From a bacterium (GTDB lineage: Bacteria > T1Sed10-126), in NCBI GenBank assembly GCA_003554945.1, contig PWHN01000057.1, positions 380 through 64,379 on the forward strand: 64,000 nucleotides of DNA. Reading direction: 5' to 3'. The notes under the pieces were generated by a model, which searched no databases, was not told where the DNA came from, and saw nothing but the letters and a program-made list of their open reading frames with translations. Of the stretch, positions 20,562 through 48,996 are shown piece by piece. Positions within the stretch are counted from its first letter, which is position 1. Each line of letters opens with the position of its first letter. The position numbers were made by a program, and so were the translations under genes.

Positions 20562-21047
20562 ATGCAAATAAATTTAACCATCAACGGTAATGAATATAGC
20601 CGTGAGGTCGATGAACACAGAAATCTGCTTCACTTTCTCCGCGAAGACCTCGGGCTGACCGGCACAAAAGAAGGGTGTGGCGCCGGAGAATGTGGCGCCT
20701 GCACAGTAATTATGGACGGCGAGCCGGTAAATTCCTGTCTTGTCCTGGCCGCCGAAGCCGACGGCTCTGAAATTGAAACTATCGAAGGCGAAGCAAGTGA
20801 AGGTGAGTTATCTGACTTACAGCAGGCCCTGCACGAACATCACGCCGTGCAGTGCGGCTTCTGCACTCCCGGAATGATTATGTCTCTCAAAGACCTGCTC
20901 CGCCGTAACTCAACCCCCGGTGAAAATGAAATTAGACAGGCGATTGAAGGTAACCTCTGCCGCTGCACCGGTTACGAACAAATAATCGAAGCAGTCCTCG
21001 ATTTAACAGGCCAACTCGATGAAAGAGAGGAGTTAAAGTATGCGTGA
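20562..21047 (+). CDS. Molybdenum hydroxylase [2Fe-2S] small subunit (CoxS-like)
   Basis: The plant-type cluster GCGAGECGACTV and the second cluster CGFCTPG...CRCTGY are present. Confidence 0.85.
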   Translation: MQINLTINGNEYSREVDEHRNLLHFLREDLGLTGTKEGCGAGECGACTVIMDGEPVNSCLVLAAEADGSEIETIEGEASEGELSDLQQALHEHHAVQCGFCTPGMIMSLKDLLRRNSTPGENEIRQAIEGNLCRCTGYEQIIEAVLDLTGQLDEREELKYA

Positions 21048-23433
21048 AGACACTCCCCAGGAAGAACTTAACTACGTTGGTAAAGGAACTGAACGAGTTG
21101 ATACAACTGAAAAATTAACTGGAAAGGCCAAATACACCGGCGATTTGCGCATGCCCGGCATGCTCCACGCCGCCGTCAAACGCAGTCCTCATGCTCGCGC
21201 AAAAATTAATAACATCGACACCTCCGACGCTGAAGCCATCCCCGGTGTCCACGCCGTTGTAACCGGAAAAGAATTTGATTACAAACTCGGTCTCTACCTG
21301 GTCGATAAGGATGTTCTCGCCCGGGAACGTGTCCGCCACCACGGTGAGGCAGTTGCTGCCGTCGCCGCAGAATCTCCCGGTTTGGCCGAGCAAGCAGTGA
21401 AAAAAATTGACGTTGATTACGAAGTTGAAGAACCTGTTCTTGACGCCCTCGAAGCTATTGAGGATGACGACAAGCTTGTTCACCCCGAACTGGACGACTA
21501 CGATTACTTTGAGCCCGCCTTCTCCCCTCAACCCGGCACTAACGTCGCCAACCACACTAAGATCCGTAAAGGCGACGTAGAACAAGGTTTTGAAGAGGCT
21601 GACCACGTAATTGAACGGGAATACACTAATCCCAACGTCCAGCACGTACCGATGGAAACACACGTCGCCGTGGCAAGCTGGAAGGAACAGGATGAGCTTG
21701 ATGTCCATACATCATGTCAGTCCCCCTTCACCGTCCGCAATCTTCTCTGCGTCGCTTTTGACCTGCCCCATACAAATGTTCATGTAGAAGTTCCTTACGT
21801 TGGTGGCGGGTTTGGTGGTAAAGCGGGAATTGGTGTCGAACCTCTGGCCGCCTGTCTGTCTAAAAAAGCTAATGGCCGGCCGGTAAAACTGGAAGCCAGC
21901 CGCGAGGAAGAGTTCAGTCTACTTCCCTGCCGCAGCGGACTAACCTACCGGATTAAATCCGGTGTTACCGAAGACGGTGACCTCGTGGCCCAAAAAATGA
22001 CAATGTTCTGGGACTCCGGCGCTTACGCCGATTATGCCGTTAATGTCACACGGGCATCGGCTTACTCGGCTTCCGGCCCCTACGAAATTCCCAACGCCCA
22101 CGTCGATGCTTATACGATTTACACAAATAAACCCTACGGCACTGCTTACCGTGGTTTCGGACACGTTGAGTTCTCCTGGGGTCTTGAACGACACATGGAC
22201 TTACTTGCTGAAACTATTGATATGGATCCACTTGAATTTAGAAAACAAAACGCTCTCAAACCCGGTTCCATTACGATTACCGGCGAGAAGATAGTGGAAA
22301 ACACCGGCAATGTAACTAAGTGCATGGAAGTGGCCGCTGAGGCCATAAATTATGGCGAACTCACGCCTGAAGAAAAAAAGCGACAGGAAGAGACGGGAAT
22401 GAAGATCGCCAAATCCGTCTCCGCTCTGCACAAGGCGCCGGCTATGCCCTCCTTCACTGCAACCGCCGCCGAACTGCGCATGAACGAAGATGGCTCTATA
22501 AATGCCGATCTATCTCTAACGGAATACGGACAGGGAACTTACACCGCCCTCACCCAGATTATTGCTGAGGAACTGGGCTTCCCGCCGGAGCGTATCAACC
22601 TGAGCATTAAAGGGGATACGGACAAGGCGCCCTACGACTGGCAGACAGTCGCTTCCAAGGGCCTGCTGATGTCCGGTAACGCCTGCATTAAGGCTGCGCG
22701 CGATCTGCTTGAGAAGGCCTACCAGGACGCCTCTGAAGTCCTACGCGCCGACCCCTGTGACCTCGACCATAACGAAAACGAAATTTACATTAAACATCAC
22801 CCCGAAGAATCCGTAACTTTCTCAGAACTTGCTGTTGGGTATGCTTATCCAACCGGCGAAGGTATCGGCGGCCCGATTATCGGTGTCGGACGCTACATGG
22901 CCCAGGGGTTGACCAATCTTGATAAAGAGACCGGCCAGGGTGAGCCGGCCCTGGACTGGACTTACGGCTCCCACGGCGTTGTCGTTGAAGTCAACGAAAT
23001 AACCGGTGAGTTTAACATCCTTAAAGTCGCCTCCGCTTTTGACGTTGGAAAAGCTATTAACCCCGCCAATATCCGCGGCCAGGTGATCGGTGGACTGATC
23101 CAGGGGTTAGGAACAACCATCTGCGAAGGTTACGCTTACGACGACGAAGGACACCTGCTTAACCCCTCCTTTACCGACAACAAAATTCCCACTTCTATGG
23201 ACGTCCCCGAGGAAATTGAAGGTATAGTAATTGAAACGCCTCAAATAGACGGCCCCTACGGGGCTCGCGGCGTCGGCGAACACCCCATGATTGCTCTCTG
23301 CGGCGCTATCGGCAACGCAATTTACTACGCCGCCGGTGCCGACCTGACCCACATGCCCATTCGCTCCGAGGACGTCTGGTGGGCCCTGCATAAGGACGAG
23401 GACCGCGATCGACCAAGATATTCGATCTGCTGA
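21040..23433 (+). CDS. Molybdenum hydroxylase large (molybdopterin-binding) subunit of the xanthine dehydrogenase / aldehyde oxidase / CoxL family
   Basis: The protein is 797 aa and translationally coupled to the 2Fe-2S subunit. Motifs of the aldehyde oxidase/xanthine dehydrogenase a/b hammerhead and Mo-binding domains are present (GGGFGGK, Q.ESPF). Confidence 0.8.
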   Translation: MREDTPQEELNYVGKGTERVDTTEKLTGKAKYTGDLRMPGMLHAAVKRSPHARAKINNIDTSDAEAIPGVHAVVTGKEFDYKLGLYLVDKDVLARERVRHHGEAVAAVAAESPGLAEQAVKKIDVDYEVEEPVLDALEAIEDDDKLVHPELDDYDYFEPAFSPQPGTNVANHTKIRKGDVEQGFEEADHVIEREYTNPNVQHVPMETHVAVASWKEQDELDVHTSCQSPFTVRNLLCVAFDLPHTNVHVEVPYVGGGFGGKAGIGVEPLAACLSKKANGRPVKLEASREEEFSLLPCRSGLTYRIKSGVTEDGDLVAQKMTMFWDSGAYADYAVNVTRASAYSASGPYEIPNAHVDAYTIYTNKPYGTAYRGFGHVEFSWGLERHMDLLAETIDMDPLEFRKQNALKPGSITITGEKIVENTGNVTKCMEVAAEAINYGELTPEEKKRQEETGMKIAKSVSALHKAPAMPSFTATAAELRMNEDGSINADLSLTEYGQGTYTALTQIIAEELGFPPERINLSIKGDTDKAPYDWQTVASKGLLMSGNACIKAARDLLEKAYQDASEVLRADPCDLDHNENEIYIKHHPEESVTFSELAVGYAYPTGEGIGGPIIGVGRYMAQGLTNLDKETGQGEPALDWTYGSHGVVVEVNEITGEFNILKVASAFDVGKAINPANIRGQVIGGLIQGLGTTICEGYAYDDEGHLLNPSFTDNKIPTSMDVPEEIEGIVIETPQIDGPYGARGVGEHPMIALCGAIGNAIYYAAGADLTHMPIRSEDVWWALHKDEDRDRPRYSIC

Positions 23434-23533: not shown

Positions 23534-24238
23534 TTGGATGATTACCTGGTAAATATCAACTCCGCTCGTCCCGCCCTACATCCGCTGGGAATACTGAGCC
23601 CCGCTTCACTTATTTCTGAAGTCCGCACTGACCAGACGGCTACACTTGAGCCCAACCAGCTTCAAATTGGGTCGCGACAATTCCAGCTTCAGACCCATTT
23701 CGAGCCACCACCTCCTCCTGCAGCAAATGAATTAAAAAATATTGATCTCTCCCCCCTGCGCAAATGTCTCAAAATCCAGGTTAATAAAAGCCGACACAGC
23801 TCTTGCCTCTTGACAAACGATTTTGACTCTCCGCCTGAAATTATTTCCCGCGCCGGACGCGCTTTAGTCGCACAGCTGAATGAAAAACAGGTTGATTTTA
23901 ACCGGCTGTTAAATTACTTTGGCGACGGTGAGGGACTTACCCCTTCTTTTGACGACATCTGCGCTGGAATGCTCTTCGTTGACCGACGGCTAAACTGCAG
24001 CAATGTTAAGCTGCCCGGCGACCTTTTCGAACGGCTAAAAAACAAAACTACCCTGACCAGCCGCTGGCAACTTGAGTTTGCTCGGCGGGGGAAGCTCAGT
24101 CTGGCTTTCGAACAGCTATTTAACCGGCTGATAGAGGGAAAAGTAGCAATTAAAGACTGCTTCTCAGCCTGTCGCTGCGGTCATACTTCGGGTGCAGACA
24201 TATTAACCGGAATTTATCTTTATTTTGAAAATTTCTAA
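23534..24238 (+). CDS. Hypothetical protein, possibly DUF2877-like (YlbF/AllH-type partner of FdrA and DUF1116). It starts with TTG in the track, and the start is uncertain.
   Basis: The protein is 234 aa with GDGEGLTPSFDD and GHTSGADILTG motifs. Its position directly after the Mo-hydroxylase and before fdrA/DUF1116 supports the call. The assignment rests mainly on context. Confidence 0.35.
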   Translation: MDDYLVNINSARPALHPLGILSPASLISEVRTDQTATLEPNQLQIGSRQFQLQTHFEPPPPPAANELKNIDLSPLRKCLKIQVNKSRHSSCLLTNDFDSPPEIISRAGRALVAQLNEKQVDFNRLLNYFGDGEGLTPSFDDICAGMLFVDRRLNCSNVKLPGDLFERLKNKTTLTSRWQLEFARRGKLSLAFEQLFNRLIEGKVAIKDCFSACRCGHTSGADILTGIYLYFENF

Positions 24239-24639
24239 CCACTCAACACTGTTCACCCAACATATAGTTAAATGCAAAGTTTGACCGTTTTATACCTTCC
24301 TGATCAACATAATCTGTGCCTCAAACTATGCATATAACTTAACCAACCGCGAGTTGCCTTCAAAACCACCTTTTTAACACCATATTACTCTCCCCTAACT
24401 ACGCCCACGTCCGTTCAACCCCTTTAACGCACTCTTTTTAGACAGCCTTTTCCCTGCACAAAGCCTGAAAAACCCAATTTTTCCTGGTTTTTACAAAATT
24501 GAATTGGTAACTGTTTAGCGCCTATCGTCATATTTCGTTTAGTTCGTCATTTCGACCCCAGAGCTGGAAAACACCAGCTTAAAGCTCAAAGCTAATTCAA
24601 ATCCATTAAGTGCTCATAATCTTGTTCTTTAACTTGAGT

Positions 24640-25060
24640 TTGGTTTTGGTCTTTCGCCTCTTCGCCCCGTCGCCCGCTCGCCTCTTCGAGCATTCCGGCC
24701 TCCGAGCCGGAATCCAGAGGCGTTGAGCTTTTGATTGTCATTCCTGCGGAAGCGGGAATCCAGCGGCGTTGAATTTGAATTAAGAAAAAGTCAATGTCAA
24801 AGTCACTGGATTGTCCGGTCAAGCCGGACAATGACGACCAATAGATCAAGCCCGTTCTTGAATTTGACGTCATTCCGGCCTCCGAGCCGGAATCCATCTT
24901 GAAGAGCAGTAATCGGTAATCGGTAATCAGTGTTCAGTGAAGTCAAAACCGATTACCGAATACCGAACACCGTTTACTGAACTTCTTGCAGGTCAAGTCC
25001 TGGGACGTTATTCGTTCCCGCAATGACGGCCGATAGAGCATACCCGTAACGGCGGCGGTG
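24640..25060. repeat. Copy A of a modular hairpin-rich miniature repeat family. It holds dRS3-like hairpins of the form ATTCC(G/C)GC-N6-8-GC(G/C)GGAAT at 24692..24713, 24740..24759 and 24871..24892. It holds a TTGTCCGG..CCGGACAA hairpin at about 24810..24830, a TCGGTAA heptamer array at about 24908..24960, and a TTATTCGTTCCCGCAATGAC module at about 25005.
   Basis: I read these directly from the sequence. The same modules recur at 26430..26600, 28805..29060, 33470..33710 (inverted) and 57610..57700. Track ORF 24592..24897 is an artefact of the repeat. Confidence 0.8.
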
Positions 25061-25154
25061 GCGCCAAATAAATACGCAAATTGCTATCAATCGAATAAAA
25101 ACAAATATTGTTCTGTTATATTCAATGAATAGATAAACGACCACACTAACTACA

Positions 25155-25283
25155 CCCCCTCAGAAAAAATTTCCTCCTTGAAGGGGGGAAAGACAAAGGG
25201 AGATGAAATATAGCCCTCGCACGCAAGGGAAAAGGCAACTTTTTAGAAAGTCTCTAACTACGTCAAAGTATTTTGACGTAGTT
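25155..25283. repeat. H3 module (CCCCCTT..GGGGAAAGACAAAGGG) at 25155..25200, followed by a perfect 12-bp-stem hairpin AACTACGTCAAA-GTAT-TTTGACGTAGTT at 25256..25283 that abuts the integrase start codon
   Basis: The inverted repeat is read directly. The H3 module also occurs at 26458..26505, 33528..33575 and 57617..57650. Confidence 0.75.
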
Positions 25284-26288
25284 ATGGATAAATTCCACGC
25301 TGATGGGTGGTCTATCATGCAAAAAACATTGGAGGTAAGTGGCGGCTCCATGCCGACGGCACATCTGCTGGCGGAGGATTTTCAACGCATGTTGACGGAA
25401 AACGACTACAGTCAGAGCACCTGCTCCACTTACCTCCGCTTCGTCGAACCCTTCCTCAAAGAAAATCCTCATCCCGCAGAAATGGACCGTTATGACGTCG
25501 GACGGTACATCCTCAAGTGGCGCAATCAGCTCAGCAATAACTCGATGAAACTGGCCACCAGCGCCCTGATTAAATTTTACAAATACCTTAAGTTTTACCA
25601 CGGTTTCCGACGGGCCGACGCAGTTATCGATCACATCCAGGATTTGAAGGGAGAATTTTTTCGCACCCCCTCTTTTCAACCGGACCCGATGAGCGAGGAT
25701 GAATTAAGTACCCTCTTCCAGTACACCCTGGGGGCAAATCCCCGTCAGGTTAGGCGCCGAAATATCATTACTATACTGCTGGGCACCGGTCTGCGCGTCT
25801 CCGAATTCTGTGCCGTGCGCCGCGATCAGGTTGCGATCCACGAACCCGGCGTCCAGTCACATATTTTTGTTCCCGGGGGAAAAACAGCTTCGGCCCGGCG
25901 CAAAATTCCTCTCCACCGCGACTTCCCCTACTCCAACTCCTGGATACTCGGCGAACGAGTCGTCGAAGCATTCGACAGCTATGAAAAAGTCCGACCCGTT
26001 CCTCGAACTGAGGAAACAGAAAATTTCTGGTTTATCTCCGAACGGGGCCAGCCCATCTCCAAACGTTCCGTCCAGGCAATGTTTACCCGTCTCTGTGAAA
26101 AATCAGGGCTGCAGAAAAAAAGGGCGGAAGCTGATGAAAACTCACTGTCGGTTCACAATCTACGTCACACTTTTGCCACTCAACTGGCCATGCAGGGAGC
26201 TAACGCCTACCAGATCAAGGCTATCCTCGGCCACGCTTCAGTCAGCACCTCCCAGGCCTACATCCGACTGCTCGATCGCGTCGGCTAA
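25284..26288 (+). CDS. Tyrosine recombinase/integrase. The start is ambiguous (25203, 25284, 25317 or 25350). The track's first 27 codons are encoded by repeat DNA and are probably not real.
   Basis: The catalytic motifs are present: box I GLRVSEFCAV, the K-box GGKTASAR, and HNLRHTFAT...LGHASVSTSQAYIR with the tyrosine. About 90 residues lie between the K-box and the HxLRH box, which is longer than in XerC/D. Confidence 0.8.
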   Translation: MDKFHADGWSIMQKTLEVSGGSMPTAHLLAEDFQRMLTENDYSQSTCSTYLRFVEPFLKENPHPAEMDRYDVGRYILKWRNQLSNNSMKLATSALIKFYKYLKFYHGFRRADAVIDHIQDLKGEFFRTPSFQPDPMSEDELSTLFQYTLGANPRQVRRRNIITILLGTGLRVSEFCAVRRDQVAIHEPGVQSHIFVPGGKTASARRKIPLHRDFPYSNSWILGERVVEAFDSYEKVRPVPRTEETENFWFISERGQPISKRSVQAMFTRLCEKSGLQKKRAEADENSLSVHNLRHTFATQLAMQGANAYQIKAILGHASVSTSQAYIRLLDRVG

Positions 26289-26429
26289 AAAACAGTCGTT
26301 ACTCACTCCAAATAGCTTACCTGACCGACCGGGGATAACTAACGCCGGTCCAACCCTACGTTTTTATTTAGTTTATCAGCAATTTTCGATACACTTGTAG
26401 AAATAAGAAACTCACTCAAAACCACTCAA

Positions 26430-26600
26430 CGTCACCCCGGACAGGTGACCCCGGAATCCCCCCTTTCTTTTTCCCCCCTTGAAGGGGGGAAAGACAAAGG
26501 GGGGTGAAGAAAATGGATTGCGGAGCGGGGTCCGCAATGACGAGCAATAGGTCACTATCTGAAAAGTTATTCGTTCCCGACAATGACAAAAACATTGGAA
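26430..26600. repeat. Partial copy of the modular repeat family. It holds a GTCACC..GGTGAC hairpin, an H3 module at 26458..26505, the H2 hairpin ATTGCGGAGCGGGGTCCGCAAT at 26517..26538, and a TTATTCGTTCCCGACAATGAC module.
   Basis: Read directly. Track ORF 26412..26615 on the minus strand lies entirely within the repeat and is probably spurious. Confidence 0.75.
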
Positions 26601-26635
26601 GATTTTAAACCCCACAACAGAGGAGTGTAAAAACT

Positions 26636-28162
26636 ATGGAAGTAATCACTAAAATCAAGCAGGACACCTATTACGACTCAGTGACACTGATGCTGGTCAG
26701 CAGCGAAATTGAAAAAATGGAAGCTGTTGAAGAAGCGATGATCGGCATGGGAACGGATTACAACATCGAGAGCCTTCAACGGCTGGATATGTTTGGCACA
26801 GAGCACGAGGACGCAACACCGAATGACCTGATTCTCACCGTAAAAGCAGCCGACGCCAAAGCGGGCGAAAAAGCTATTGAAACGGCAGAAGAAAAGCTGA
26901 AAGAAAAATCTCAATCCAGCGGTGGCGTAAGCGCCTACAACCCTCCGACCCAGGAGAGAGCCGCCGACATGCTCCCCGGGGCCAACATGGTCTTAATTTC
27001 TGTGCCGGGTGAGCACGCAGCCAAAGAGGCCCACGAAGCACTGGACAACGACCGGCACGTCATGCTGTTTTCGGACAACGTAAGCCTGGATGAAGAACTG
27101 GAACTGAAAGAAAAAGCGGTGAAAAAAGGACTGCTTATGATGGGGCCCGACTGCGGGACCTCAATTATCAACGGCGTGCCACTCGCCTTCGCCAACGCCG
27201 TTCGCGGGGGTAATATTGGACTGGTCGCCGCCTCGGGCACCGGCCTGCAGGAGACTACGAGCATAATTCATCAGCTTGGTGGCGGTATCAGTCAGGCTAT
27301 CGGTGTCGGCGGACGCGACCTCTCTGCCCAAATTGAAGGGCGAATGACGCTACTGGCCGCCAGGGCCCTCGATCGCGACGACAATACCGATGTTATCACC
27401 CTGATTTCTAAACCACCCGACGAGACAATCCTCGCACCTCTGCTAAAGGAGCTTAATTCACTCAGTAAACCGGTAGTCATTTATTTTATTGGTGCCGATC
27501 AGGCAAAAATTGAAGCGGAAGGATTCACCGCCGCCGGCGACCTGGAGAACGCTGCCGTACAATCCTGCCGGCTCGCTGGTGTTGATGCTGCCGACTCACT
27601 AATAAACCAGGCGGAAATTGAACAAAAAGCGGCCAAAATACAGCTTTCCGGTCCTTATCTACGTGGTCTCTATTCCGGCGGCACTCTCTGCGATGAAGCC
27701 CAGCGAATCCTCCACGATCGGCTGGATGAAATTTACTCGAACACACCCGTTGAAGGTTGTCACGAACTCGAAGACCTCTATCAAAGCAAAGCGCACACAA
27801 TCATCGACCTCGGCGAGGACGAGTTCACCCAGGGACGCGCTCACCCCATGATCGATCCTACACTGCGTAAAGAAAGAATTGTTCAAGAAATGCAAGACCC
27901 TGAAGTGGGGATAATACTGTTGGACGTCGTCCTCGGCTATGGCGCTCATCCGGACATGGCCGGTGCCCTCGTCGAAGCTATAGAAGAGGGTAAATCCGCC
28001 GCGGACAGTCCACCGCTGGTTGCCGCTTCTATCTGTGGAACCGACCAGGACCCGCAAAATTACGAACAGCAGAAAAATACCCTCGAAGAGGCTGGGGTTT
28101 ATGTTTTCCCATCTAACGTCTCCATGGTAAAATTTGCATATCAGTTGTTTGAAACGACATAA
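26636..28162 (+). CDS. fdrA: FdrA family protein (succinyl-CoA-synthetase-like fold), reported in E. coli as the AllF subunit of oxamate carbamoyltransferase
   Basis: The protein is 508 aa. Its N-terminus MEVITKIKQDTYYDSVTLMLVSSEI is characteristic of FdrA. CoA-binding and ligase-like glycine-rich segments are present (GPDCGTSIINGV, GLVAASGTGLQE). The SD is AGAGGAG. Confidence 0.7.
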   Translation: MEVITKIKQDTYYDSVTLMLVSSEIEKMEAVEEAMIGMGTDYNIESLQRLDMFGTEHEDATPNDLILTVKAADAKAGEKAIETAEEKLKEKSQSSGGVSAYNPPTQERAADMLPGANMVLISVPGEHAAKEAHEALDNDRHVMLFSDNVSLDEELELKEKAVKKGLLMMGPDCGTSIINGVPLAFANAVRGGNIGLVAASGTGLQETTSIIHQLGGGISQAIGVGGRDLSAQIEGRMTLLAARALDRDDNTDVITLISKPPDETILAPLLKELNSLSKPVVIYFIGADQAKIEAEGFTAAGDLENAAVQSCRLAGVDAADSLINQAEIEQKAAKIQLSGPYLRGLYSGGTLCDEAQRILHDRLDEIYSNTPVEGCHELEDLYQSKAHTIIDLGEDEFTQGRAHPMIDPTLRKERIVQEMQDPEVGIILLDVVLGYGAHPDMAGALVEAIEEGKSAADSPPLVAASICGTDQDPQNYEQQKNTLEEAGVYVFPSNVSMVKFAYQLFETT

Positions 28163-28278
28163 CTAAACGCAAAAACGCCAAGAAATCGATTTGGAGGATG
28201 ACATCAAAAACTATAACAACTTTAAGATCAAGAGCGAAAAACACTAAGTCGCAAAGACGCTAAGGAAGACAATTAATT

Positions 28279-28521
28279 ATGGACGAGAATTATTTGAGTA
28301 ATCAAATAATCAATGCTGCTATTGAGGTTCATCAATGGCTCGGTGGACCTGGTTTGTTGGAGTCTGTGTACGAAAAATCTTTAGCAAAAGAGTTACGGGA
28401 TCGTAACTTTAAAATTCAACAACAAGTCAGCTTCCCTATTGAATATAAAGAGGAAGAACTTAATGAAAAATTCAGATAAGAAGGTATCCATCGAGTGGTT
28501 AACAATTTGTAATTAAAAACT
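28279..28521 (+). pseudogene. Degraded GxxExxY-family gene (PD-(D/E)XK-like, often transposon-associated). The N-terminal 66 codons are followed by a stop and then by the family's C-terminal EGIHRVVNNL in frame. About 50-60 internal codons are deleted.
   Basis: The N-terminal part is NAAIEVHQWLGGPGLLESVYEKSLAKELRDRNFKIQQQVSFPIEYKEEEL..FR. After the TAA the frame continues EGIHRVVNNL-stop, which matches the family C-terminus G(I/L)xRxVNN. The local region is AT-rich. Confidence 0.6.
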
Positions 28522-28590
28522 TTGCGGCTTTGCGCCTTCGCGTTTTTGCTTTTTTTCACTATGTCATTAACCTATAACAGGGTGATTTTT

Positions 28591-28764
28591 ATGAAGCCAA
28601 TTGACTCGCTTTTTAACGAAGAAGTTAAAGTGATTAACCTGGGGATTCCCGCTTTTCGCGACGACCTTGACGAGCAGGGCGTGGAAGTGGTTCACGTCGA
28701 CTGGAGTCCTCCGGCCGGCGGCAACAAAAAAATGCAGTCACTGCTCAACCAGCTCAAGGGGTGA
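28591..28764 (+). CDS. Small hypothetical protein of 57 aa (MKPIDSLFNEEVKVINLGIPAFRDDLDEQGVEVVHVDWSPPAGGNKKMQSLLNQLKG), located between fdrA and the DUF1116 gene
   Basis: An SD-like AGGGTGA lies 7 nt upstream of the ATG. There is no recognisable family. The longer track ORF 28522..28764 begins with a hydrophobic stretch that is unlikely to be real. Confidence 0.35.
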   Translation: MKPIDSLFNEEVKVINLGIPAFRDDLDEQGVEVVHVDWSPPAGGNKKMQSLLNQLKG

Positions 28765-28804
28765 CTATTAAAAATCATTTGAGCTTATTAGGATTATCTC
28801 AAAA

Positions 28805-29060
28805 TTTTTCCTCGTCATTCCCGCGGAAGCGGGAATCAAGTTGAAGTTCAGTAACCGGTAATCGGTAGTCGGTGATCGGTAACTTCGGTAGTTCAACATC
28901 AAAGTCACTGGATTACCCGGTCGAGCCTTGGGGCGTTATTCGTTCCGGGCAATGACGTTCGGTAATGCTGAATTACGGGTCGGACCCCACAATGATGAGC
29001 GTAAGGTCTTGACTGTCATTCCCGCGGAAGCGGGAATCCAGCGACGTTGAACTTATGATG
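28805..29060. repeat. Copy B of the modular repeat family, in the same orientation as copy A. It holds ATTCCCGCGGAAGCGGGAAT hairpins at 28817..28836 and 29017..29036, a TCGGTAA heptamer array, and TCAAAGTCACTGG and TTATTCGTTCCGGGCAATGAC modules.
   Basis: Read directly. The module order is shuffled relative to copy A. Confidence 0.8.
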
Positions 29061-29119
29061 GTTAAGAAGCATCCGCTTTTGATATTATGATGTTAACCCG
29101 CAACACACAACACGATGTT

Positions 29120-29306
29120 ACTTTCACACTTTTTCACTTTTTAACTTTTTAACTTTGCAACTTTATAACTTTCACACTTTTAAACTTTGTAACTTTCACA
29201 CTTTTAAACTTTGTAACTTTCACACTTTTAAACTTTGTAACTTTCACACTTTTAAACTTTGTAACTTTCACACTTTTTAACTTTCACACTTTTTAACTTT
29301 CACACT
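29120..29306 (+). promoter_or_regulatory. Tandem array of about 23 octamers (A/C)ACTTTNN. It includes four perfect copies of the 24-mer CTTTCACACTTTTAAACTTTGTAA and ends in CTTTCACACTCTAAGGAGG (the SD), 9 nt before the DUF1116 ATG. It is extremely G-poor.
   Basis: Direct reading shows ACTTT recurring with strict 8-bp period over about 187 bp. A second shorter array of the same unit precedes the next gene. Confidence 0.8.
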
Positions 29307-29322
29307 CTAAGGAGGAAATAAA

Positions 29323-30570
29323 ATGAACGTTGACATAGAAAAAGCTAATCAGAAGGTAATCGATAAAATCCAGGCTGGTAATCCGGTACTTAAAGGTATT
29401 GGAACGGTTGGTGAAAATGTCCCGGAAGTTCACAAAAAAATGATACTTCACGCCGGCCCGCCAGTGGAATGGGAAGACATGAGTGGCCCCACCAGGGGAG
29501 CTGTAATTGGCGGTTTAATCTACGAGGGGCTTGCCAAAGACGAGGACGAGGCGCGGGCGCTCGCCGCATCCGGTGAAATAGAGTTTGACCCCTGGCACGA
29601 ACATAGTGGTGTTGGGCCGATGGCCGGCGTCGCCACTGTCAGCATGCCGGTCTGGATTGTGGAAAATACGACTGAAGGCGGGCAAGCCTACTGCACATTC
29701 AACGAAGGGCTTGGCAAGGTCTTACGTTACGGTGCCTACGCGCCTGATGTGATTGACCATCTTAAGTGGATGGAAAATGAGCTGGCTCCAGTTTTAACTG
29801 AAACGCTGGCCCAGCTTGATAATGAAATAAACCTGAAGAGTATTATCGCTGAAGCTCTTGAGATGGGAGATGAGGTTCACAACCGCAACCGGGCGGCCAC
29901 TTCACTCTTCTACCGCCGCATCACTCCGGCTCTTTTGGAAACCGATTTCAACGTTGATAAAAAGAAAAAGGTCCTGGAATTTATTGACTCTAACGATCAT
30001 TTCTTTTTAAATCTCAGCATGCCGGCGGCCAAATCAATGATCCAGGTCGCCGAGGGAATTGAAGGCTCCTCTATCCTGACAGTTTTAGCACGAAACGGTA
30101 CTGAAACGGGAATAAAAATAGCCGGACTGGGTGACCAGTGGTTCACCGCCAAAGCGCCGGTTCCCGAGGGCCTGCTCTTCTCCGGTTACGATAAAGACGA
30201 CGCCTGTGCCGATATTGGCGACAGCACGATCACTGAAACTGTCGGTCTTGGTGCCTTTTCCATGGCTGCCTCACCGGCAATTGTTAAATTTGTCGGCGGC
30301 AGCGTCGAGGACGCTTTCAACTTCACCCGTAAAATGTATGAAATCTGTGAAGACGAGTCCGAAAACTTCAAGGTGGCCACGCTGGACTTTCGCGGCGCAC
30401 CGACCGGAGTCAACTTGCTAAAAGTCTGTGAGCTTGATATCACGCCCCAGATTAATACCGGTATAGCCCACAAGGAGCCGGGCATAGGACAAATTGGGGC
30501 CGGACTTGTTCAGGCACCAATGAAGTGTTTCGAACAGGCGCTGGAGGCGTTCGCCGCCAAATACGCATAA
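29323..30570 (+). CDS. DUF1116 family protein (YlbE-like), reported as the AllG subunit of oxamate carbamoyltransferase
   Basis: The protein is 415 aa. The conserved N-terminal block ILHAGPPVEWEDMSGPTRGAVIGGLIYEGLAKDEDEA and the block NEGLGKVLRYGAY are typical of YlbE/DUF1116. The gene context with fdrA supports it. Confidence 0.65.
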   Translation: MNVDIEKANQKVIDKIQAGNPVLKGIGTVGENVPEVHKKMILHAGPPVEWEDMSGPTRGAVIGGLIYEGLAKDEDEARALAASGEIEFDPWHEHSGVGPMAGVATVSMPVWIVENTTEGGQAYCTFNEGLGKVLRYGAYAPDVIDHLKWMENELAPVLTETLAQLDNEINLKSIIAEALEMGDEVHNRNRAATSLFYRRITPALLETDFNVDKKKKVLEFIDSNDHFFLNLSMPAAKSMIQVAEGIEGSSILTVLARNGTETGIKIAGLGDQWFTAKAPVPEGLLFSGYDKDDACADIGDSTITETVGLGAFSMAASPAIVKFVGGSVEDAFNFTRKMYEICEDESENFKVATLDFRGAPTGVNLLKVCELDITPQINTGIAHKEPGIGQIGAGLVQAPMKCFEQALEAFAAKYA

Positions 30571-30574
30571 CTAA

Positions 30575-30633
30575 AACTTTCACACTTTGTAACTTTCAAA
30601 CTTTCACACTTTGTAACTTTCAAACTTTCACAC
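30575..30633 (+). promoter_or_regulatory. Second tandem array of about 7.5 octamers (AACTTTCA / CACTTTGT / AACTTTCA ...). It ends in CTTTCACACTCTAAGGAGG, 8 nt before the cyclase ATG.
   Basis: Direct reading. The terminal 19 nt are identical to the end of the first array. Confidence 0.8.
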
Positions 30634-30650
30634 TCTAAGGAGGAGTCACA

Positions 30651-31430
30651 ATGGTAAAACTTTATGATTTAACACAAGATCTGAGCATTCACACCCCCCC
30701 CTGGCCCAGTTACATGCCCCTGCAACTGCAGTATTTTAAACGTATTTCAGGTGCCCACATGGGACAGGGAGCCAACGGTCAGATCGTCAAGACGAGTATG
30801 CACGTCGGCACACACATAGACGGCGAGAAACACTTTGACGCCAAGGGACGGACGATAGGCGAAGTCCCGCTTGAGGAATTTTGCGGGGAGGGAGTAGTCG
30901 TTGACATCTCTGATGATGTTGAAGATTTTTCTCTTTACTCACCCGAGATGCTGGAATCAAAGGCCGACATTCGTGAAGGAGACATTCTAATAATTAACAC
31001 CGGCTACCACAGATACGCCTGGGACCAGCCCGAGAGCGACGAGCTGCGCTACATGGTCAAACACCCGGGCCCAAACCCTGACTTTCACAAGTGGGCCCTG
31101 GAGATGGATTTCAAGTGGATTGGCGTCGACTGCGGTAGTGCCGACCATCCGATGAACACTATCCTTCGTGACTGGCACCCCGGTCTGTTCGAAAAAGCCG
31201 AGGCAAAACTTAAAGAAGACTACGGCAAGAGCTGGGACGAGATGTTCCCCTACGAGGAATACTACCAGGTCATGCACCTTGATCTATTTCCAGAGGGCCT
31301 GATCCACGCCGAAAACCTCGGCGGCGAAATTAACGAGCTCAACAACCAGCGCTCCTGGATTGGGCTTTTCCCCTGGAAAGGTATCGAAATGGAGTCCTCA
31401 ATCTGCCGCATTGCTGCTTTTGAGTTTTAA
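30651..31430 (+). CDS. Cyclase-family metal-dependent hydrolase (kynurenine formamidase / isatin hydrolase family)
   Basis: The signature motif HxGTHxDxxxH appears as MHVGTHIDGEKHF. The protein is 259 aa. The SD is AAGGAGG. Confidence 0.75.
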   Translation: MVKLYDLTQDLSIHTPPWPSYMPLQLQYFKRISGAHMGQGANGQIVKTSMHVGTHIDGEKHFDAKGRTIGEVPLEEFCGEGVVVDISDDVEDFSLYSPEMLESKADIREGDILIINTGYHRYAWDQPESDELRYMVKHPGPNPDFHKWALEMDFKWIGVDCGSADHPMNTILRDWHPGLFEKAEAKLKEDYGKSWDEMFPYEEYYQVMHLDLFPEGLIHAENLGGEINELNNQRSWIGLFPWKGIEMESSICRIAAFEF

Positions 31431-36095: not shown

Positions 36096-37211
36096 TTAAG
36101 TTTCAAAACGATAGTTCTTTACGGCCCAGCTAAATTCGCTGATTATAACCCAGAGACTGGCTGCTACCGGGATTGCCAGGACCATGCCCAGCATGCCGGC
36201 GAGCTGGCCGCCGGCAATAATAACTATCACCACAATTAACGGATGCATCGACATGCTCTGGGAAAAAGCGACTGGTTTGACCGCTATGTTATCAATAAGT
36301 TGGACAAGCAAAATTAGTAGCATTACCATAATTACGGGAAGGGCCGAGCCGGTTTCAATTAATTGTACTATAATTGCCGGGAGGGCTCCCACTACAGGCC
36401 CAACATAGGGAACCACATTTGCCAGCCCCACAAATATTCCGATTGTAATCGCATAGGGCACATCGAGCAGCCAGAACCCCCCCGCGCTTAACAGAGCAAT
36501 TACAACCGCTTCTATTGCAAGCCCCCGGACATACTCACCTATTTTTTGGTCGACTTTATTATATATCTGATAAATCATCTCAAAAAAAACGTTAGGCACT
36601 CCGCTCAAGAAAAAAGTTTCTATAGCCTGTTGATCGCGAACAATAAAAAAAGCAATAAACGGAATAACTACAACGTATACCGCAACGTGAGGTAATATTC
36701 TACCAATTGTTAGCAGAAGAAGAGTAAGCTGCTGCAGACCCCAGTCATAAGCATACGAAACCTGGTCATGGAATGTGCCCTCCGGTATAAAGCCAAGCGA
36801 ACGTTCCAGCTCACTCAAATAGCCCATGATCCCCAGGACTTCTTCAATTTCTCCAGGTTCTTCTTCCTCGAGCAATTCTTCCATCTCCAGTTCTCCCAGC
36901 GTCCGCCGCAGGTTAATTGCCTGGTTGTAAATATGGGGAATAAAACCACCCAGCAGAGTTACAAGTATTAAAAATAAAACTACAAAGACAAGCGCCGTCG
37001 ACGTATAACGAGAAAACCCACGATGTTCAAGCGACTCGACCGGCGGGCGCAAAAGGTACGAAAACAGAACAGCTATGAATAGCATACTGACCAGATGATA
37101 CAGCTCCGGAATAAAATAGAGGGTTACTGCAAAAATTATGAGAGGCAGAAAGTAATGAATCAGCGAGACAACAAGCCTGGGAGTTGGGGCCCATGACTTA
37201 GATTCACTCAT
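36096..37211 (-). CDS. AI-2E family transporter (PerM/UPF0118 permease)
   Basis: The protein is 371 aa and polytopic, with the characteristic layout of two blocks of transmembrane helices and a conserved C-terminal GxxGxxxxxP-type region. Confidence 0.7.
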   Translation of the reverse strand: MSESKSWAPTPRLVVSLIHYFLPLIIFAVTLYFIPELYHLVSMLFIAVLFSYLLRPPVESLEHRGFSRYTSTALVFVVLFLILVTLLGGFIPHIYNQAINLRRTLGELEMEELLEEEEPGEIEEVLGIMGYLSELERSLGFIPEGTFHDQVSYAYDWGLQQLTLLLLTIGRILPHVAVYVVVIPFIAFFIVRDQQAIETFFLSGVPNVFFEMIYQIYNKVDQKIGEYVRGLAIEAVVIALLSAGGFWLLDVPYAITIGIFVGLANVVPYVGPVVGALPAIIVQLIETGSALPVIMVMLLILLVQLIDNIAVKPVAFSQSMSMHPLIVVIVIIAGGQLAGMLGMVLAIPVAASLWVIISEFSWAVKNYRFET

Positions 37212-37809
37212 TGACTTCAGCCTCGCTATCCTGCTGATTTAGACGCAAATTTTCTTGCCGTATCTTCAAAAACTGCTGGCCTATGTGAGCAGTTAAGTTC
37301 CCATGTACTTTCAATCCGGCCGAGGGGTTACGGTAGACAAAACGTTCCAGTCCTTTTCTGAATAGAACCAGGGTCTTTGTTGAAGCACGAGTACGAGCAT
37401 CATACATACGGCGATGTTCACAACATAAGGCTAGTTCCCCAAAGATATTTCCCGACTCGAGATAACTACCATCCATCTGCTTGACCGCCGGGCAACTTAA
37501 CTCAACCCGGCCATTACAGATTATATACATTGCAGTCGCCGGATCTCCTTCGGAAAATATGCTCTCCCCTTTGGTAAACTGTCGCTCGTGCAGATAATCA
37601 GCAAGCGCCAGATATTGAGAGCTGCGCAACCCACTAAATACCTCGATATCGGACAGCAGGTCAATTAACTCCTGAGCCTCTGGATCTTCCGGTTCATGTA
37701 TTTGCTCCCACCATTCAACTACCATCCCGCGCAGATCACACCAGTAAAGCTTTATCTTTTCTTTTATGTCGTTGAGAATCTTCTTTCCCTCCTTTGTATA
37801 ACCAGGCAT
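37204..37809 (-). CDS. Cyclic-nucleotide-binding domain protein with no HTH output domain. The start is chosen at MPGYTKEG because an SD GGGAGGA sits 7 nt upstream. The track's GTG start at 37872 includes repeat-derived codons.
   Basis: The cNMP-binding core is FSGLRSSQYLALADYL...GESIFSEGDPATAMYIICNGRVEL...GNIFGELAL. Confidence 0.7.
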   Translation of the reverse strand: MPGYTKEGKKILNDIKEKIKLYWCDLRGMVVEWWEQIHEPEDPEAQELIDLLSDIEVFSGLRSSQYLALADYLHERQFTKGESIFSEGDPATAMYIICNGRVELSCPAVKQMDGSYLESGNIFGELALCCEHRRMYDARTRASTKTLVLFRKGLERFVYRNPSAGLKVHGNLTAHIGQQFLKIRQENLRLNQQDSEAEVNE

Positions 37810-37828
37810 AAAATATCCTCCCATGTTT

Positions 37829-37882
37829 ACATCTTTAAGTCCGTCACGTATTTCCATCTTTAAGTCCGTCACGTATTTCCAT
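37829..37882. repeat. Perfect tandem duplication of the 25-mer ATCTTTAAGTCCGTCACGTATTTCC, immediately upstream of the cNMP-binding protein gene
   Basis: Direct reading. Each unit contains GTCACGTA. Confidence 0.8.
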
Positions 37883-38067
37883 CTGAAACCCCGGTAACAA
37901 TAGATTCCTGTTCTCGCAGAAATGACAAAGTAGAGGGGCCTGAATTATTTTAACATATTACTTGTCTCAGTATAATATCCGACTTTCCCTTTCACGTCTC
38001 GAAAGTTATACTTAATTTCAAGAAATGAGTCTACTTTAAATCAACATCTTACTGGAGGTATGTCCTG

Positions 38068-48795: not shown

Positions 48796-48996
48796 GTGCC
48801 AACAGGGACCGTTAAATGGTTTGATGACGCCAAGGGTTACGGCTTCATTGAACAAGAAACGGGCGAGGATGTATTTGTCCACTTCTCGGACATTGAAGTC
48901 GAAGGTTACAAAACCCTCGACGAAAACCAGGAAGTCGAGTTTGAACTCGAAGAAACTGAAAAAGGCCTCGCCGCTGTCGAAGTTACCCCGCTTTAG
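48796..48996 (+). CDS. cspA: Cold-shock protein (CspA family)
   Basis: The RNP motifs KGYGFI and VFVHF are present. The protein is 66 aa. A long 5' leader is typical of csp genes. Confidence 0.9.

What the first reader, a model, noticed from the sequence alone, without database searches (positions are those of the whole stretch)
30575..30633. A second array of the same octamer repeat, with an identical 19-nt terminal segment, forms the leader of the adjacent cyclase gene.
This array has about 7.5 octamers (AACTTTCA CACTTTGT AACTTTCA AACTTTCA CACTTTGT AACTTTCA AACTTTCA CACTCTAAGGAGG). It lies between the DUF1116 stop codon and the cyclase start codon. It ends in the same CTTTCACACTCTAAGGAGG as the upstream array. 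Two consecutive genes carrying the same repetitive leader points to a functional, duplicated regulatory or translation-initiation cassette rather than random slippage. Copy-number variation (23 versus 7.5) could tune relative expression of the two genes.
Basis: seen in the sequence. Interest (0 to 1): 0.6.

Follow-up and report, generated by a model that had tools for sequence, protein, structure and literature searches.

The report
Variable octamer-repeat leaders on two genes
Two neighbouring genes of an uncultured soda-lake bacterium each begin with a run of 8-base repeats (ACTTT plus three variable bases) placed directly against a perfect ribosome-binding site. A sister species keeps both runs with different repeat counts but an unchanged ACTTT core, so they look like a selected, length-variable leader and not junk.

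Summary
Array B (30576-30639) has 7 ACTTTNNN units plus a degenerate ACTCTAAG unit. It lies between the allG (DUF1116) stop codon and the cyclase ATG. Its last 22 nt, AACTTTCACACTCTAAGGAGGA, are identical to the end of array A (29120-29311, 23 units). Both arrays run straight into UAAGGAGG-N7-AUG.

Relatives at 73-80% AllG identity have the same operon with short leaders and no arrays. A sister species (L129; 87-89% nt identity, 4-fold-site divergence 0.37-0.41) has both arrays at the same two junctions, with 11 and 6 units. Its spacer triplets differ, but ACTTT is invariant in 47/47 units and the junction-to-ATG leader is unchanged.

A pilin gene on a contig from the same soda-lake sample carries the same ACTTTNNN...ACTCTAAGGAGG leader.

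The arrays have essentially no RNA self-structure and no Rfam match. ACTTT octamer arrays elsewhere in bacteria and viruses are no commoner than control pentamers.

Best reading: a lineage-specific, slippage-prone repeat that is transcribed as a U-rich, G-poor translation-initiation leader under purifying selection. Its effect on expression is untested. It is a new variant of known 5'-UTR repeat systems, of moderate interest.

The parts
30576..30631 (+). Array B: 7 octamers ACTTT+NNN (spacers CAC GTA CAA CAC GTA CAA CAC), organised as a 24-nt higher-order repeat x2.3
30632..30639 (+). Terminal degenerate unit ACTCTAAG of array B, in phase with the array and overlapping the SD
   Evidence: identical in array A, in both L129 arrays and in L127
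30636..30643 (+). Extended Shine-Dalgarno TAAGGAGG of the cyclase gene, followed by the 7-nt spacer AGTCACA and ATG 30651
   Evidence: the 31 nt from ACTTTCAC to the ATG are identical in L129
30651..31430 (+). Cyclase-family (PF04199) gene served by array B
29120..29303 (+). Array A: 23 octamers ACTTT+NNN, including (CAC TAA GTA)x4 as a perfect 24-nt higher-order repeat
29304..29315 (+). Terminal unit ACTCTAAG plus SD TAAGGAGG (29308-29315) of allG, followed by the 7-nt spacer AAATAAA and ATG 29323
29323..30570 (+). allG (PF06545, oxamate carbamoyltransferase subunit AllG / DUF1116), flanked by the two direct arrays
29062..29091 (+). Sigma-70-like promoter match (TTAAGA-18-TATGAT) about 30 nt upstream of array A. 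This would make array A almost the whole 5' UTR. It lies in a block about 93% conserved with L129.
   Evidence: consensus match only
29004..29054 (+). REP-like G+C-rich hairpin element upstream of the promoter-like site. It is strongly structured, in contrast to the arrays.
28591..28764 (+). 57-aa ORF (C-terminal piece of FdrA/AllF) that lies about 43 nt upstream of allG in relatives without arrays

Best explanation
The two arrays are a lineage-specific octanucleotide simple-sequence repeat, (ACTTTNNN)n. It arose in the common ancestor of two soda-lake sister species. It grows, shrinks and is homogenised between the two sites by slipped-strand mispairing and gene conversion.

It is transcribed as the RNA directly 5' of an optimal ribosome-binding site (UAAGGAGG-N7-AUG) of allG and of the cyclase gene. 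There it acts in cis on translation initiation as a long U-rich, G-poor, structure-free tract. Such a tract could serve as a ribosome standby or landing pad for a general single-strand RNA binder such as ribosomal protein S1 or a cold-shock-domain protein. Its periodic ACUUU motif is the selected feature. Unit number is free to change and can therefore reset expression of each gene.

Shown: the anatomy, conservation of the core and junction, copy-number change between species, and lack of RNA structure.

Inferred: that the constraint acts on RNA, the identity of the binding partner, and the direction and size of any effect on expression.
For: 1. Geometry. Both arrays run in phase into the SD with no room for a promoter in between, so they must be part of the mRNA leader. 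All three loci known (allG, cyclase, the pilin in L127) have the array on the sense strand, ending ACTCTAAGGAGG 7-9 nt before the ATG.

2. Selection.
- The sister species L129 differs at 37-41% of 4-fold sites in allG and cyclase, yet ACTTT is invariant in 47/47 units.
- All of the at least 9 substitutions separating the 10 unit types fall in the 3 spacer positions. P = 1.5e-4, or about 1e-3 after allowing any of the 8 cyclic registers.
- The 31 nt from the last ACTTTCAC to the cyclase ATG are identical between the species.

3. Repeat dynamics.
- Unit counts are 23 vs 11 and 7 vs 6.
- Perfect 24-nt higher-order repeats are present.
- Species-specific spacers are shared by both arrays of one genome: GTA in the window, ACA in L129.

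4. RNA properties.
- Array A folds at -1.9 kcal/mol over 184 nt and array B at -0.1 over 56 nt.
- The leaders fold no better than shuffles (z +0.93 and +0.70).
- The REP region just upstream is heavily structured.
- G content is 2-5% and U 38-47%.

5. Candidate partners. A full-length S1 (584 aa) and a 66-aa CSD protein are encoded in the window.

6. Precedents. These are the T7 g10 enhancer+SD (PMC8748333, listed), unstructured 5' tails acting by ribosome standby (PMC5934652), and the CspB preference for GTCTTTG/T (PMC1904285).
Against: - No expression data exist.
- Relatives do without arrays and already have strong SDs on short G-poor leaders, so the arrays are dispensable for the pathway.
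- In-silico deletion of the arrays does not lower predicted SD accessibility (0.41 vs 0.45 for A; 0.48 vs 0.57 for B).
- CUUUC in the units is wobble-complementary to GGAGG, and predicted SD exposure falls as units are added (0.44 to 0.19 for A, 0.44 to 0.30 for B). The net effect could therefore be repression, not enhancement.
- A merely unstructured, U-rich tract would not need an invariant ACUUU. That points to a more sequence-specific reader than S1 is known to be.
- Only 3 loci are known, so strand bias is weak evidence.
- The sampled genome fraction is small: about 64 kb plus about 47 kb from the sister species.
Confidence: 0.45

Rival explanations
1. Neutral or selfish simple-sequence repeat. 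Slippage-generated junk is tolerated in intergenic spacers of a genome that is generally invaded by short repeats. The shared 3' end reflects a local duplication or gene conversion, and there is no function.
For: - The same operon is riddled with other repeats: REP hairpins, GTAATCG heptamers, inverted octamer arrays, an integrase insertion.
- Arrays are absent from relatives at 73-80% AllG identity.
- Perfect higher-order repeats indicate very recent expansion.
- Octamer arrays of any core are common in public data: 73 loci for ACTTT vs 71 and 118 for control cores.
- In 127 arrays from other genomes orientation relative to genes is only mildly biased (30 sense vs 20 antisense).
Against: - Both arrays persist at the same two junctions across about 40% 4-fold-site divergence.
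- The core is invariant while spacers turn over (P about 1e-3), and the junction is unchanged.
- Neutral concerted evolution would let the consensus drift in each species, as the spacers did.
Confidence: 0.15
2. Binding platform for a dedicated oligomeric RNA-binding regulator, analogous to TRAP or HutP or to the proposed TAACTGA-repeat network. ACUUU motifs spaced by 3 nt would be read by repeated subunits or domains. Binding next to the SD would switch translation of a small regulon (allG, cyclase, pilin and others).
For: - A conserved 5-nt core, fixed 8-nt period and free spacers form the classic signature of a multi-subunit single-strand binder.
- The same leader occurs on an unrelated gene (pilin) on a contig from the same soda-lake sample that shares the window's REP elements.
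- The described TAACTGA heptamers sit in forward orientation just upstream of start codons (PMC4679880).
Against: - Unit number is very variable (3 to 23), unlike the stoichiometric sites of TRAP or HutP.
- No candidate regulator gene is linked to the locus.
- Only 3 loci were found in about 115 kb sampled.
- The metagenome pattern scan gave only one related extra locus.
Confidence: 0.15
3. RNA processing or decay determinant. The single-stranded AU-rich arrays would be endonuclease entry sites (ACUUU fits the loose RNase E preference RN|WUU, from my own knowledge). They would split the operon transcript and set different stabilities for allG and cyclase mRNAs. This is a variant of the H. influenzae hmw 5'-UTR repeat mechanism.
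For: - Array B is intercistronic and array A is a long 5' UTR, and both are unstructured and U-rich.
- In hmw1A the transcribed (ATCTTTC)n repeat controls expression post-transcriptionally through RNase processing (PMC12721329).
Against: - The hmw mechanism needs a long hairpin between the repeats and a G-rich arm cut by RNase III. No such partner or structure is predicted here.
- No minus-sense or complementary array exists in the window.
- The RNase E motif is too degenerate to explain an invariant pentamer.
Confidence: 0.1
4. DNA-level element: iteron-like sites for a DNA-binding protein, a promoter-spacing phase-variation switch, or a recombination substrate. In the last case the direct repeats flanking allG would allow its deletion or amplification.
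For: - The two arrays are direct repeats 1.3 kb apart with 22 nt of identity, and they exchange sequence (species-specific spacers shared).
- L127 shows a 57-nt tandem duplication of its repeat leader.
- Geobacter has multicopy tandem octa- and heptanucleotide sites annotated as putative regulator sites (PMC2700814).
Against: - No sigma-70-like promoter is found inside or downstream of the arrays.
- Array B lies inside an operon 16 nt (30635-30650) from an ATG.
- An 8-bp period places successive sites on different faces of duplex DNA.
- No contig with allG deleted or amplified was seen.
- The strict strand asymmetry and in-phase fusion to the SD are not explained.
Confidence: 0.07

Closest known systems
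Haemophilus influenzae hmw1A/hmw2A 5'-UTR heptamer repeat (ATCTTTC)n
   Same: - A short pyrimidine-rich tandem repeat transcribed as part of the 5' UTR.
- Present on two paralogous or adjacent loci with different copy numbers.
- Copy number changes by slippage.
- In hmw, expression is inversely proportional to repeat number (PMC12721329).
   Different: - The hmw repeat works through a long hairpin with a G-rich arm cut by RNase III. Here no structure is predicted.
- The unit here is 8 nt with a 5-nt invariant core and free spacers.
- The array here abuts the SD.
- The host is an environmental anaerobe and the genes are metabolic, not surface antigens.
- Within-population variation has not been shown.
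TAACTGA intergenic direct repeats of marine Beggiatoaceae, cyanobacteria and Bacteroidetes (MacGregor 2015, PMC4679880)
   Same: - Short direct repeats in forward orientation within a few nucleotides of start codons.
- Proposed post-transcriptional role.
- The same candidate readers: S1, Csp.
   Different: - Those are perfect heptamers, 2-6 copies, at about 169 loci per genome, and they usually replace the SD.
- Here the unit is an octamer with variable spacers, 6-23 copies, at very few loci, fused to a canonical strong SD.
Phage T7 gene 10 translational enhancer (epsilon, UUAACUUUA) plus SD; AU-rich S1-dependent leaders and standby sites
   Same: - A U/A-rich, G-poor, unstructured sequence immediately 5' of a strong SD.
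- TTAACTTT (8 of the 9 epsilon bases; the epsilon sequence is from my own knowledge) occurs 4 times in array A.
- The organism encodes a full-length S1.
- Related papers are listed (PMC8748333, PMC5934652, PMC3858243).
   Different: - Known enhancers are single copies of about 9-30 nt, not arrays of 7-23 units.
- No enhancement has been measured here.
- Folding predicts slight SD masking, not exposure.
TRAP (11 x G/UAG, 2-3 nt spacers) and HutP (UAG, 4-nt spacers) leader binding sites (own knowledge)
   Same: A short conserved motif at a fixed period with unconstrained spacers, in a 5' leader and reaching the SD.
   Different: - Repeat number there matches the oligomer, whereas here it varies 3-23.
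- No cognate protein has been identified.
- The motif and period are different.
Multicopy tandem octa- and heptanucleotide sites of Geobacter metallireducens (PMC2700814) and cyanobacterial STRR heptamers
   Same: - Tandem 7-8-nt units in intergenic DNA of unknown function.
- The window also carries such heptamers (GTAATCG) in inverted pairs.
   Different: - Those are short (3-5 units), usually in inverted pairs and dispersed in dozens of copies.
- Arrays A and B are long, unpaired, strand-specific and tied to an SD.

Membership tests
Phase-variable 5'-UTR simple-sequence repeat (contingency locus, hmw type) | Tandem short repeat lying between the promoter and the start codon and transcribed | tested here: met
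   The arrays abut the SD. A promoter-like site lies about 30 nt upstream of array A. Array B is intercistronic.
Phase-variable 5'-UTR simple-sequence repeat (contingency locus, hmw type) | Repeat number differs between strains or within populations | tested here: inconclusive
   Counts differ between sister species (23 vs 11; 7 vs 6). The two contigs available per species agree with each other.
Phase-variable 5'-UTR simple-sequence repeat (contingency locus, hmw type) | Expression changes with repeat number | not testable with these tools
   Needs reporters or transcript and protein data.
Phase-variable 5'-UTR simple-sequence repeat (contingency locus, hmw type) | hmw-specific: a long hairpin between the repeats and a G-rich arm, processed by RNase III | tested here: not met
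   Leader MFE is -19.2 kcal/mol over 263 nt (z +0.93). The arrays alone fold at -1.9 and -0.1 kcal/mol. There is no pairing with the upstream 330 nt.
AU-rich / epsilon-type translational enhancer with S1 or standby binding | U/A-rich, G-poor, unstructured tract directly 5' of the SD | tested here: met
   G 2-5%, U 38-47%. No structure is predicted. The arrays are contiguous with UAAGGAGG.
AU-rich / epsilon-type translational enhancer with S1 or standby binding | Raises translation of the downstream gene; binds S1 or the 30S subunit | not testable with these tools
   An S1 gene is present, but no binding or expression assay is possible. Predicted SD exposure is not improved by the arrays.
TAACTGA-type start-codon-proximal direct repeats | Unit TAACTGA (heptamer), perfect copies | tested here: not met
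   The unit is ACTTTNNN, an octamer with a variable spacer.
TAACTGA-type start-codon-proximal direct repeats | Forward orientation within a few nucleotides of start codons | tested here: met
   3 of 3 loci.
TAACTGA-type start-codon-proximal direct repeats | Many loci per genome, usually replacing the SD | tested here: not met
   Only 2 of about 45 SD-led genes in the window carry an array. None was found in about 47 kb of sister-species DNA. A canonical SD is retained.
TRAP/HutP-like multi-repeat regulator site | Conserved short motif, fixed period, free spacers | tested here: met
   ACTTT in 47/47 units, period exactly 8, 10 spacer variants.
TRAP/HutP-like multi-repeat regulator site | Repeat number matched to a protein oligomer; cognate protein present | tested here: inconclusive
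   Unit number ranges from 3 to 23. No linked candidate regulator gene was seen among the neighbours annotated.
Any curated RNA family (Rfam 15) | Covariance-model match at the gathering score | tested here: not met
   0 matches in the 64-kb window.
Pan-bacterial 'ACTTT octamer array' class (considered) | ACTTT-core period-8 arrays over-represented relative to composition-matched cores, and sense-oriented to genes | tested here: not met
   In IMG/VR, six-unit arrays give 73 loci for ACTTT vs 71 (TCTAT) and 118 (TTCAT). Sense vs antisense ORF starts within 60 nt number 30 vs 20.

The most novel reading that the evidence does not exclude
The ACUUU-every-8-nt arrays are the operator of a previously undescribed sequence-specific, multimeric single-strand RNA-binding regulator in this deep uncultured lineage. 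The regulator could be a specialised cold-shock-domain or S1-like protein. It would polymerise along the leader up to the SD and switch translation of a small regulon (allG, cyclase, a type IV pilin and others). Repeat number would set cooperativity, giving a TRAP-like system with an evolvable number of sites.
Probability: 0.12. Interest if true: 0.8.

Novelty: new variant of a known kind. Interest (0 to 1): 0.45.

Why it matters
Tandem short repeats in bacterial 5' leaders are known mainly from host-adapted pathogens, where they act as phase-variation switches. In environmental bacteria they are only described and have no functional evidence.

This case offers a clean natural experiment. The same repeat leader is fused to a perfect ribosome-binding site on two adjacent metabolic genes. 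Two species keep it with different unit numbers, and it shows a clear footprint of selection: an invariant pentamer with free spacers.

If the repeat number sets translation, this would be an evolvable, modular expression dial usable in synthetic biology. It would also hint that repeats of the TAACTGA kind are real post-transcriptional elements. If it has no effect, the invariant core still needs a mutational explanation.

Tried and rejected
1. A widespread ACTTT-octamer family. However, control pentamers are equally or more frequent in IMG/VR (73 vs 71 and 118). Orientation to genes is only 30:20. None of those loci is homologous to the window beyond the repeat. Rejected as a family.

2. A known RNA family. 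Rfam gave no hit.

3. An hmw-like hairpin or a thermometer-like structure. No stable fold was found and predicted SD masking shows little temperature dependence.

4. An insulator that frees the SD from the structured REP region. In-silico deletion does not lower SD accessibility.

5. A promoter inside the arrays. No sigma-70-like match was found.

6. A coding or leader-peptide reading. There is no ATG in the arrays, and an in-frame TAA at 29308 blocks any N-terminal extension of allG.

7. Integron cassette or attC. The arrays are not inverted repeats, and the nearby integrase sits in a separate repeat-flanked insertion.

8. A general leader habit of this genome. No other predicted SD-led gene in the window has such an array.

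9. Copy-number variants from exact-protein contigs. The contigs break in the arrays or are identical.

10. A first duplex-search script timed out. Literature searches on the epsilon sequence returned only vector sequences.

Full report
**1. Observation**

- From 30576 there are seven octamers, ACTTT plus the triplets CAC GTA CAA CAC GTA CAA CAC. A degenerate eighth unit ACTCTAAG (30632-30639) follows and overlaps the Shine-Dalgarno TAAGGAGG (30636-30643). A 7-nt spacer then leads to the ATG at 30651.
- TRF calls the array period 8 (7.6 copies) and period 24 (2.5 copies, 100% match).
- The upstream array (29120-29303) has 23 such units, the same terminal unit, the same SD and also a 7-nt spacer before the allG ATG at 29323.
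- The two arrays share 22 identical bases at their 3' ends, AACTTTCACACTCTAAGGAGGA.
- ACTTTN3ACTTTN3ACTTT with up to 1 mismatch occurs 28 times in the window, all on the + strand and all inside the two arrays, against 0.02 expected.
- Two short contigs from other assemblies encode the identical AllG protein and carry identical array ends, but they break inside the arrays. The arrays are therefore real. The count of 23 in the 192-nt array A is less certain than the count of 7 in array B.

**2. Context**

The genes form a purine/allantoin-type operon:
- xanthine-dehydrogenase Mo subunit (21040-23433)
- AllH (23534-24238)
- AllF/FdrA-like (26636-28162)
- a 57-aa ORF equal to the C-terminal piece of FdrA (28591-28764)
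- AllG/DUF1116 (29323-30570)
- a cyclase-family protein (30651-31430)

A sigma-70-like match (TTAAGA-18-TATGAT, 29062-29091) lies about 30 nt upstream of array A. It sits in a block about 93% identical to the sister species. There is no promoter-like match inside or after either array. Because the arrays run in phase into the SD, they must be part of the mRNA leader.

No other predicted SD-led gene in the 64-kb window has such a leader. Rfam finds nothing in the window.

ValS homologues fall from 100, 85 and 73-64% straight to 52% identity. Closely related contigs come from the soda-lake sediment sample SL_8KL_010_SED. The organism therefore belongs to a deep uncultured lineage.

**3. Relatives**

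The closest AllG homologues outside the species pair (80, 75 and 74% identity) sit in a compact version of the same operon. Their leaders are 24-45 nt, G-poor, carry strong GGAGG sites and have no arrays.

A sister species has both arrays at the same two junctions (contig L129, ENA ERZ27266011; the same sequence appears in L130, SRR9330141).
- AllG is 95% identical at the amino-acid level and 87% at the nucleotide level.
- 4-fold-degenerate sites differ at 0.41 in allG and 0.37 in the cyclase gene.
- Array A' has 11 units: CAC TTA ACA CAC TTA ACA CAC TTA GCA CAC CAC.
- Array B' has 6 units: TAC ACA ACA CAC ACA CAC.
- Both end in the same ACTTTCACACTCTAAGGAGG.

A pattern scan of metagenome contigs returned L127. 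It comes from the same soda-lake sample and shares the window's REP elements at 75-86% identity. In L127, ACTTTTAA ACTTTCTA ACTTTTCA ACTCTAAGGAGG precedes by 9 nt the ATG of a type IV pilin-like gene (N_methyl motif). A 57-nt tandem duplication of that leader carries one more unit.

**4. Evidence for constraint**

- Across the four arrays of the two species, positions 1-5 are ACTTT in 47 of 47 non-terminal units.
- Position 6 takes all four bases, position 7 takes three, and position 8 takes only A or C.
- Ten unit types exist. The minimum of 9 substitutions linking them all fall in the three spacer positions. P = 1.5e-4, or about 1e-3 after allowing any of the 8 cyclic registers; adding L127 gives 11 substitutions.
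- The 31 nt from the last ACTTTCAC to the cyclase ATG are identical between the species, although 4-fold sites in the flanking genes differ at about 40%.
- Spacer triplets have turned over. Species-specific triplets are shared by the two arrays of one genome (GTA in the window, ACA in L129). This indicates exchange between the arrays together with independent expansion as 24-nt higher-order repeats.

Neutral concerted evolution explains the turnover. It does not explain the invariant core or the fixed junction.

**5. RNA properties**

- Array A alone folds at -1.9 kcal/mol over 184 nt, and array B at -0.1 kcal/mol over 56 nt.
- The full leaders fold no better than shuffles (z +0.93 and +0.70). 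The REP-rich 330 nt upstream are strongly structured.
- G is 2-5% and U 38-47%.
- Removing the arrays in silico does not lower SD accessibility.
- CUUUC in the ACUUUCAC units is wobble-complementary to GGAGG. Predicted SD exposure falls from 0.44 to 0.19 (A) or 0.30 (B) as units are added. The effect is lost when ACUUU is changed to ACAAA and shows little temperature dependence.
- This effect is modest and lies within the range of relatives' natural leaders (0.15-0.52).

The direction of any effect on translation therefore stays open.

**6. Is it part of something widespread?**

Three results argue against a pan-bacterial ACTTT class:
- None of those loci is homologous to the window beyond the repeat.
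- Sense versus antisense gene starts within 60 nt number 30 versus 20.
- In IMG/VR, six-unit arrays with core ACTTT (73 loci) are no more frequent than the composition-matched cores TCTAT (71) or TTCAT (118).

What is special here is the local anatomy and its conservation.

**7. Mechanism**

Most likely (about 0.45): a lineage-specific, slippage-prone repeat transcribed as a structure-free, U-rich leader that acts in cis on translation initiation of allG and the cyclase gene. It could work as a standby or landing tract for the ribosome, S1 or a cold-shock-domain protein. S1 and a CSD protein are both encoded in the window. ACUUU would be the selected motif, and unit number would be free to change.

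| Rival | Weight | Main points |
|---|---|---|
| Functionless repeat | 0.15 | Contradicted by the conservation pattern |
| Dedicated multimeric RNA-binding regulator, as for TRAP/HutP or the proposed TAACTGA network | 0.15 | Favoured by the core/spacer signature and the pilin locus; weakened by the 3-23 range of unit numbers and the few loci |
| RNA processing or decay site | 0.10 | The hmw-type hairpin is absent |
| DNA-level element | 0.07 | No promoter; the 8-bp period and strand specificity are unexplained |

**8. Comparison with known systems**

- H. influenzae hmw1A/hmw2A (ATCTTTC)n 5'-UTR repeat. It shares the transcribed, copy-number-variable leader on two loci. It works through an RNase III hairpin that is not present here (PMC12721329).
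- TAACTGA direct repeats of Beggiatoaceae. They share forward orientation next to start codons and the same candidate readers. They are perfect heptamers at about 169 loci and replace the SD (PMC4679880).
- The T7 gene 10 enhancer plus SD, and AU-rich or standby leaders. They share composition and position, and TTAACTTT occurs four times in array A. They are single copies (the epsilon sequence is from my own knowledge).
- Tandem octa- and heptanucleotide multicopy sites of Geobacter. They resemble the other repeats in this window more than they resemble arrays A and B (PMC2700814).

**9. Verdict**

This is a new variant of known 5'-leader repeat systems, of moderate interest (0.45).

Noticed in passing
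window 24240-26630 and 28163-29110: In relatives the operon is compact. Here every intergenic junction is swollen by inserts. A tyrosine recombinase gene (25203-26288) is flanked by repeats at 25170-25207 and 26471-26508. A composite module of about 250 nt (REP-like hairpin GTCATTCCCGCGGAAGCGGGAATCCAG plus GTAATCG heptamers) is present at 24726-25040 and 28803-29055. The sister species has fewer of these pieces.
   Followed up: partly
window 28165-28553: A truncated GxxExxY-like ORF (28279-28479) is bracketed by inverted short octamer arrays: AAACGCAA AAACGCCA on the left and CTTTGCGG CTTTGCGC CTTCGCGT on the right. It is further degraded in L129. It looks like the remnant of a small inserted element with repeat arms.
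   Followed up: no
window 24909-24972 and 28851-28882; L127 1809-1904: Heptamer tandem arrays (GTAATCG, with its inverted partner forming a hairpin) occur here, and TCGGTGT and TTACTGA arrays occur in L127. They resemble the paired tandem hepta- and octanucleotide sites of Geobacter and the TAACTGA repeats of Beggiatoaceae.
   Followed up: partly
window 37826-37884 (minus-strand gene 37809..37204): A 25-nt unit repeated 2.4 times at 97% identity lies directly upstream of the GGAGG and ATG of a minus-strand gene. This is a second, unrelated case of a tandem repeat abutting a ribosome-binding site. Alternatively it lies inside a GTG-started N-terminal extension.
   Followed up: no
window 28591-28764: The 57-aa ORF matches the last 50 residues of FdrA (NCBIfam NF004760) and is kept as a separate small gene in all relatives. 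Its 4-fold-site divergence from the sister species is only 0.115, against 0.37-0.41 for allG and the cyclase gene. This suggests recent recombination or extra constraint on this segment.
   Followed up: partly
window 5519-7273 and 48796-48993: The window encodes a full-length six-domain-type ribosomal protein S1 (584 aa). It also encodes a 66-aa cold-shock-domain protein that is 100% identical in the sister MAG. These are the two obvious general candidates for binding a U-rich single-stranded leader.
   Followed up: partly
loci L134-L434 (IMG/VR): Long period-8 tandem arrays with any A/C/T-rich pentamer core are common in viral contigs, and a large share of the hits are giant-virus MAGs (GVMAG records). 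Some contigs carry arrays at both ends in inverted orientation, for example L238, L263 and L267.
   Followed up: no
L127 (reverse strand) 3421-3517: The pilin leader is tandemly duplicated (57-nt period). The upstream copy has 4 ACTTT units and the SD-proximal copy has 3. It is preceded by GGTTTTAC octamers in the same phase, so it is a mosaic of two octamer types.
   Followed up: partly
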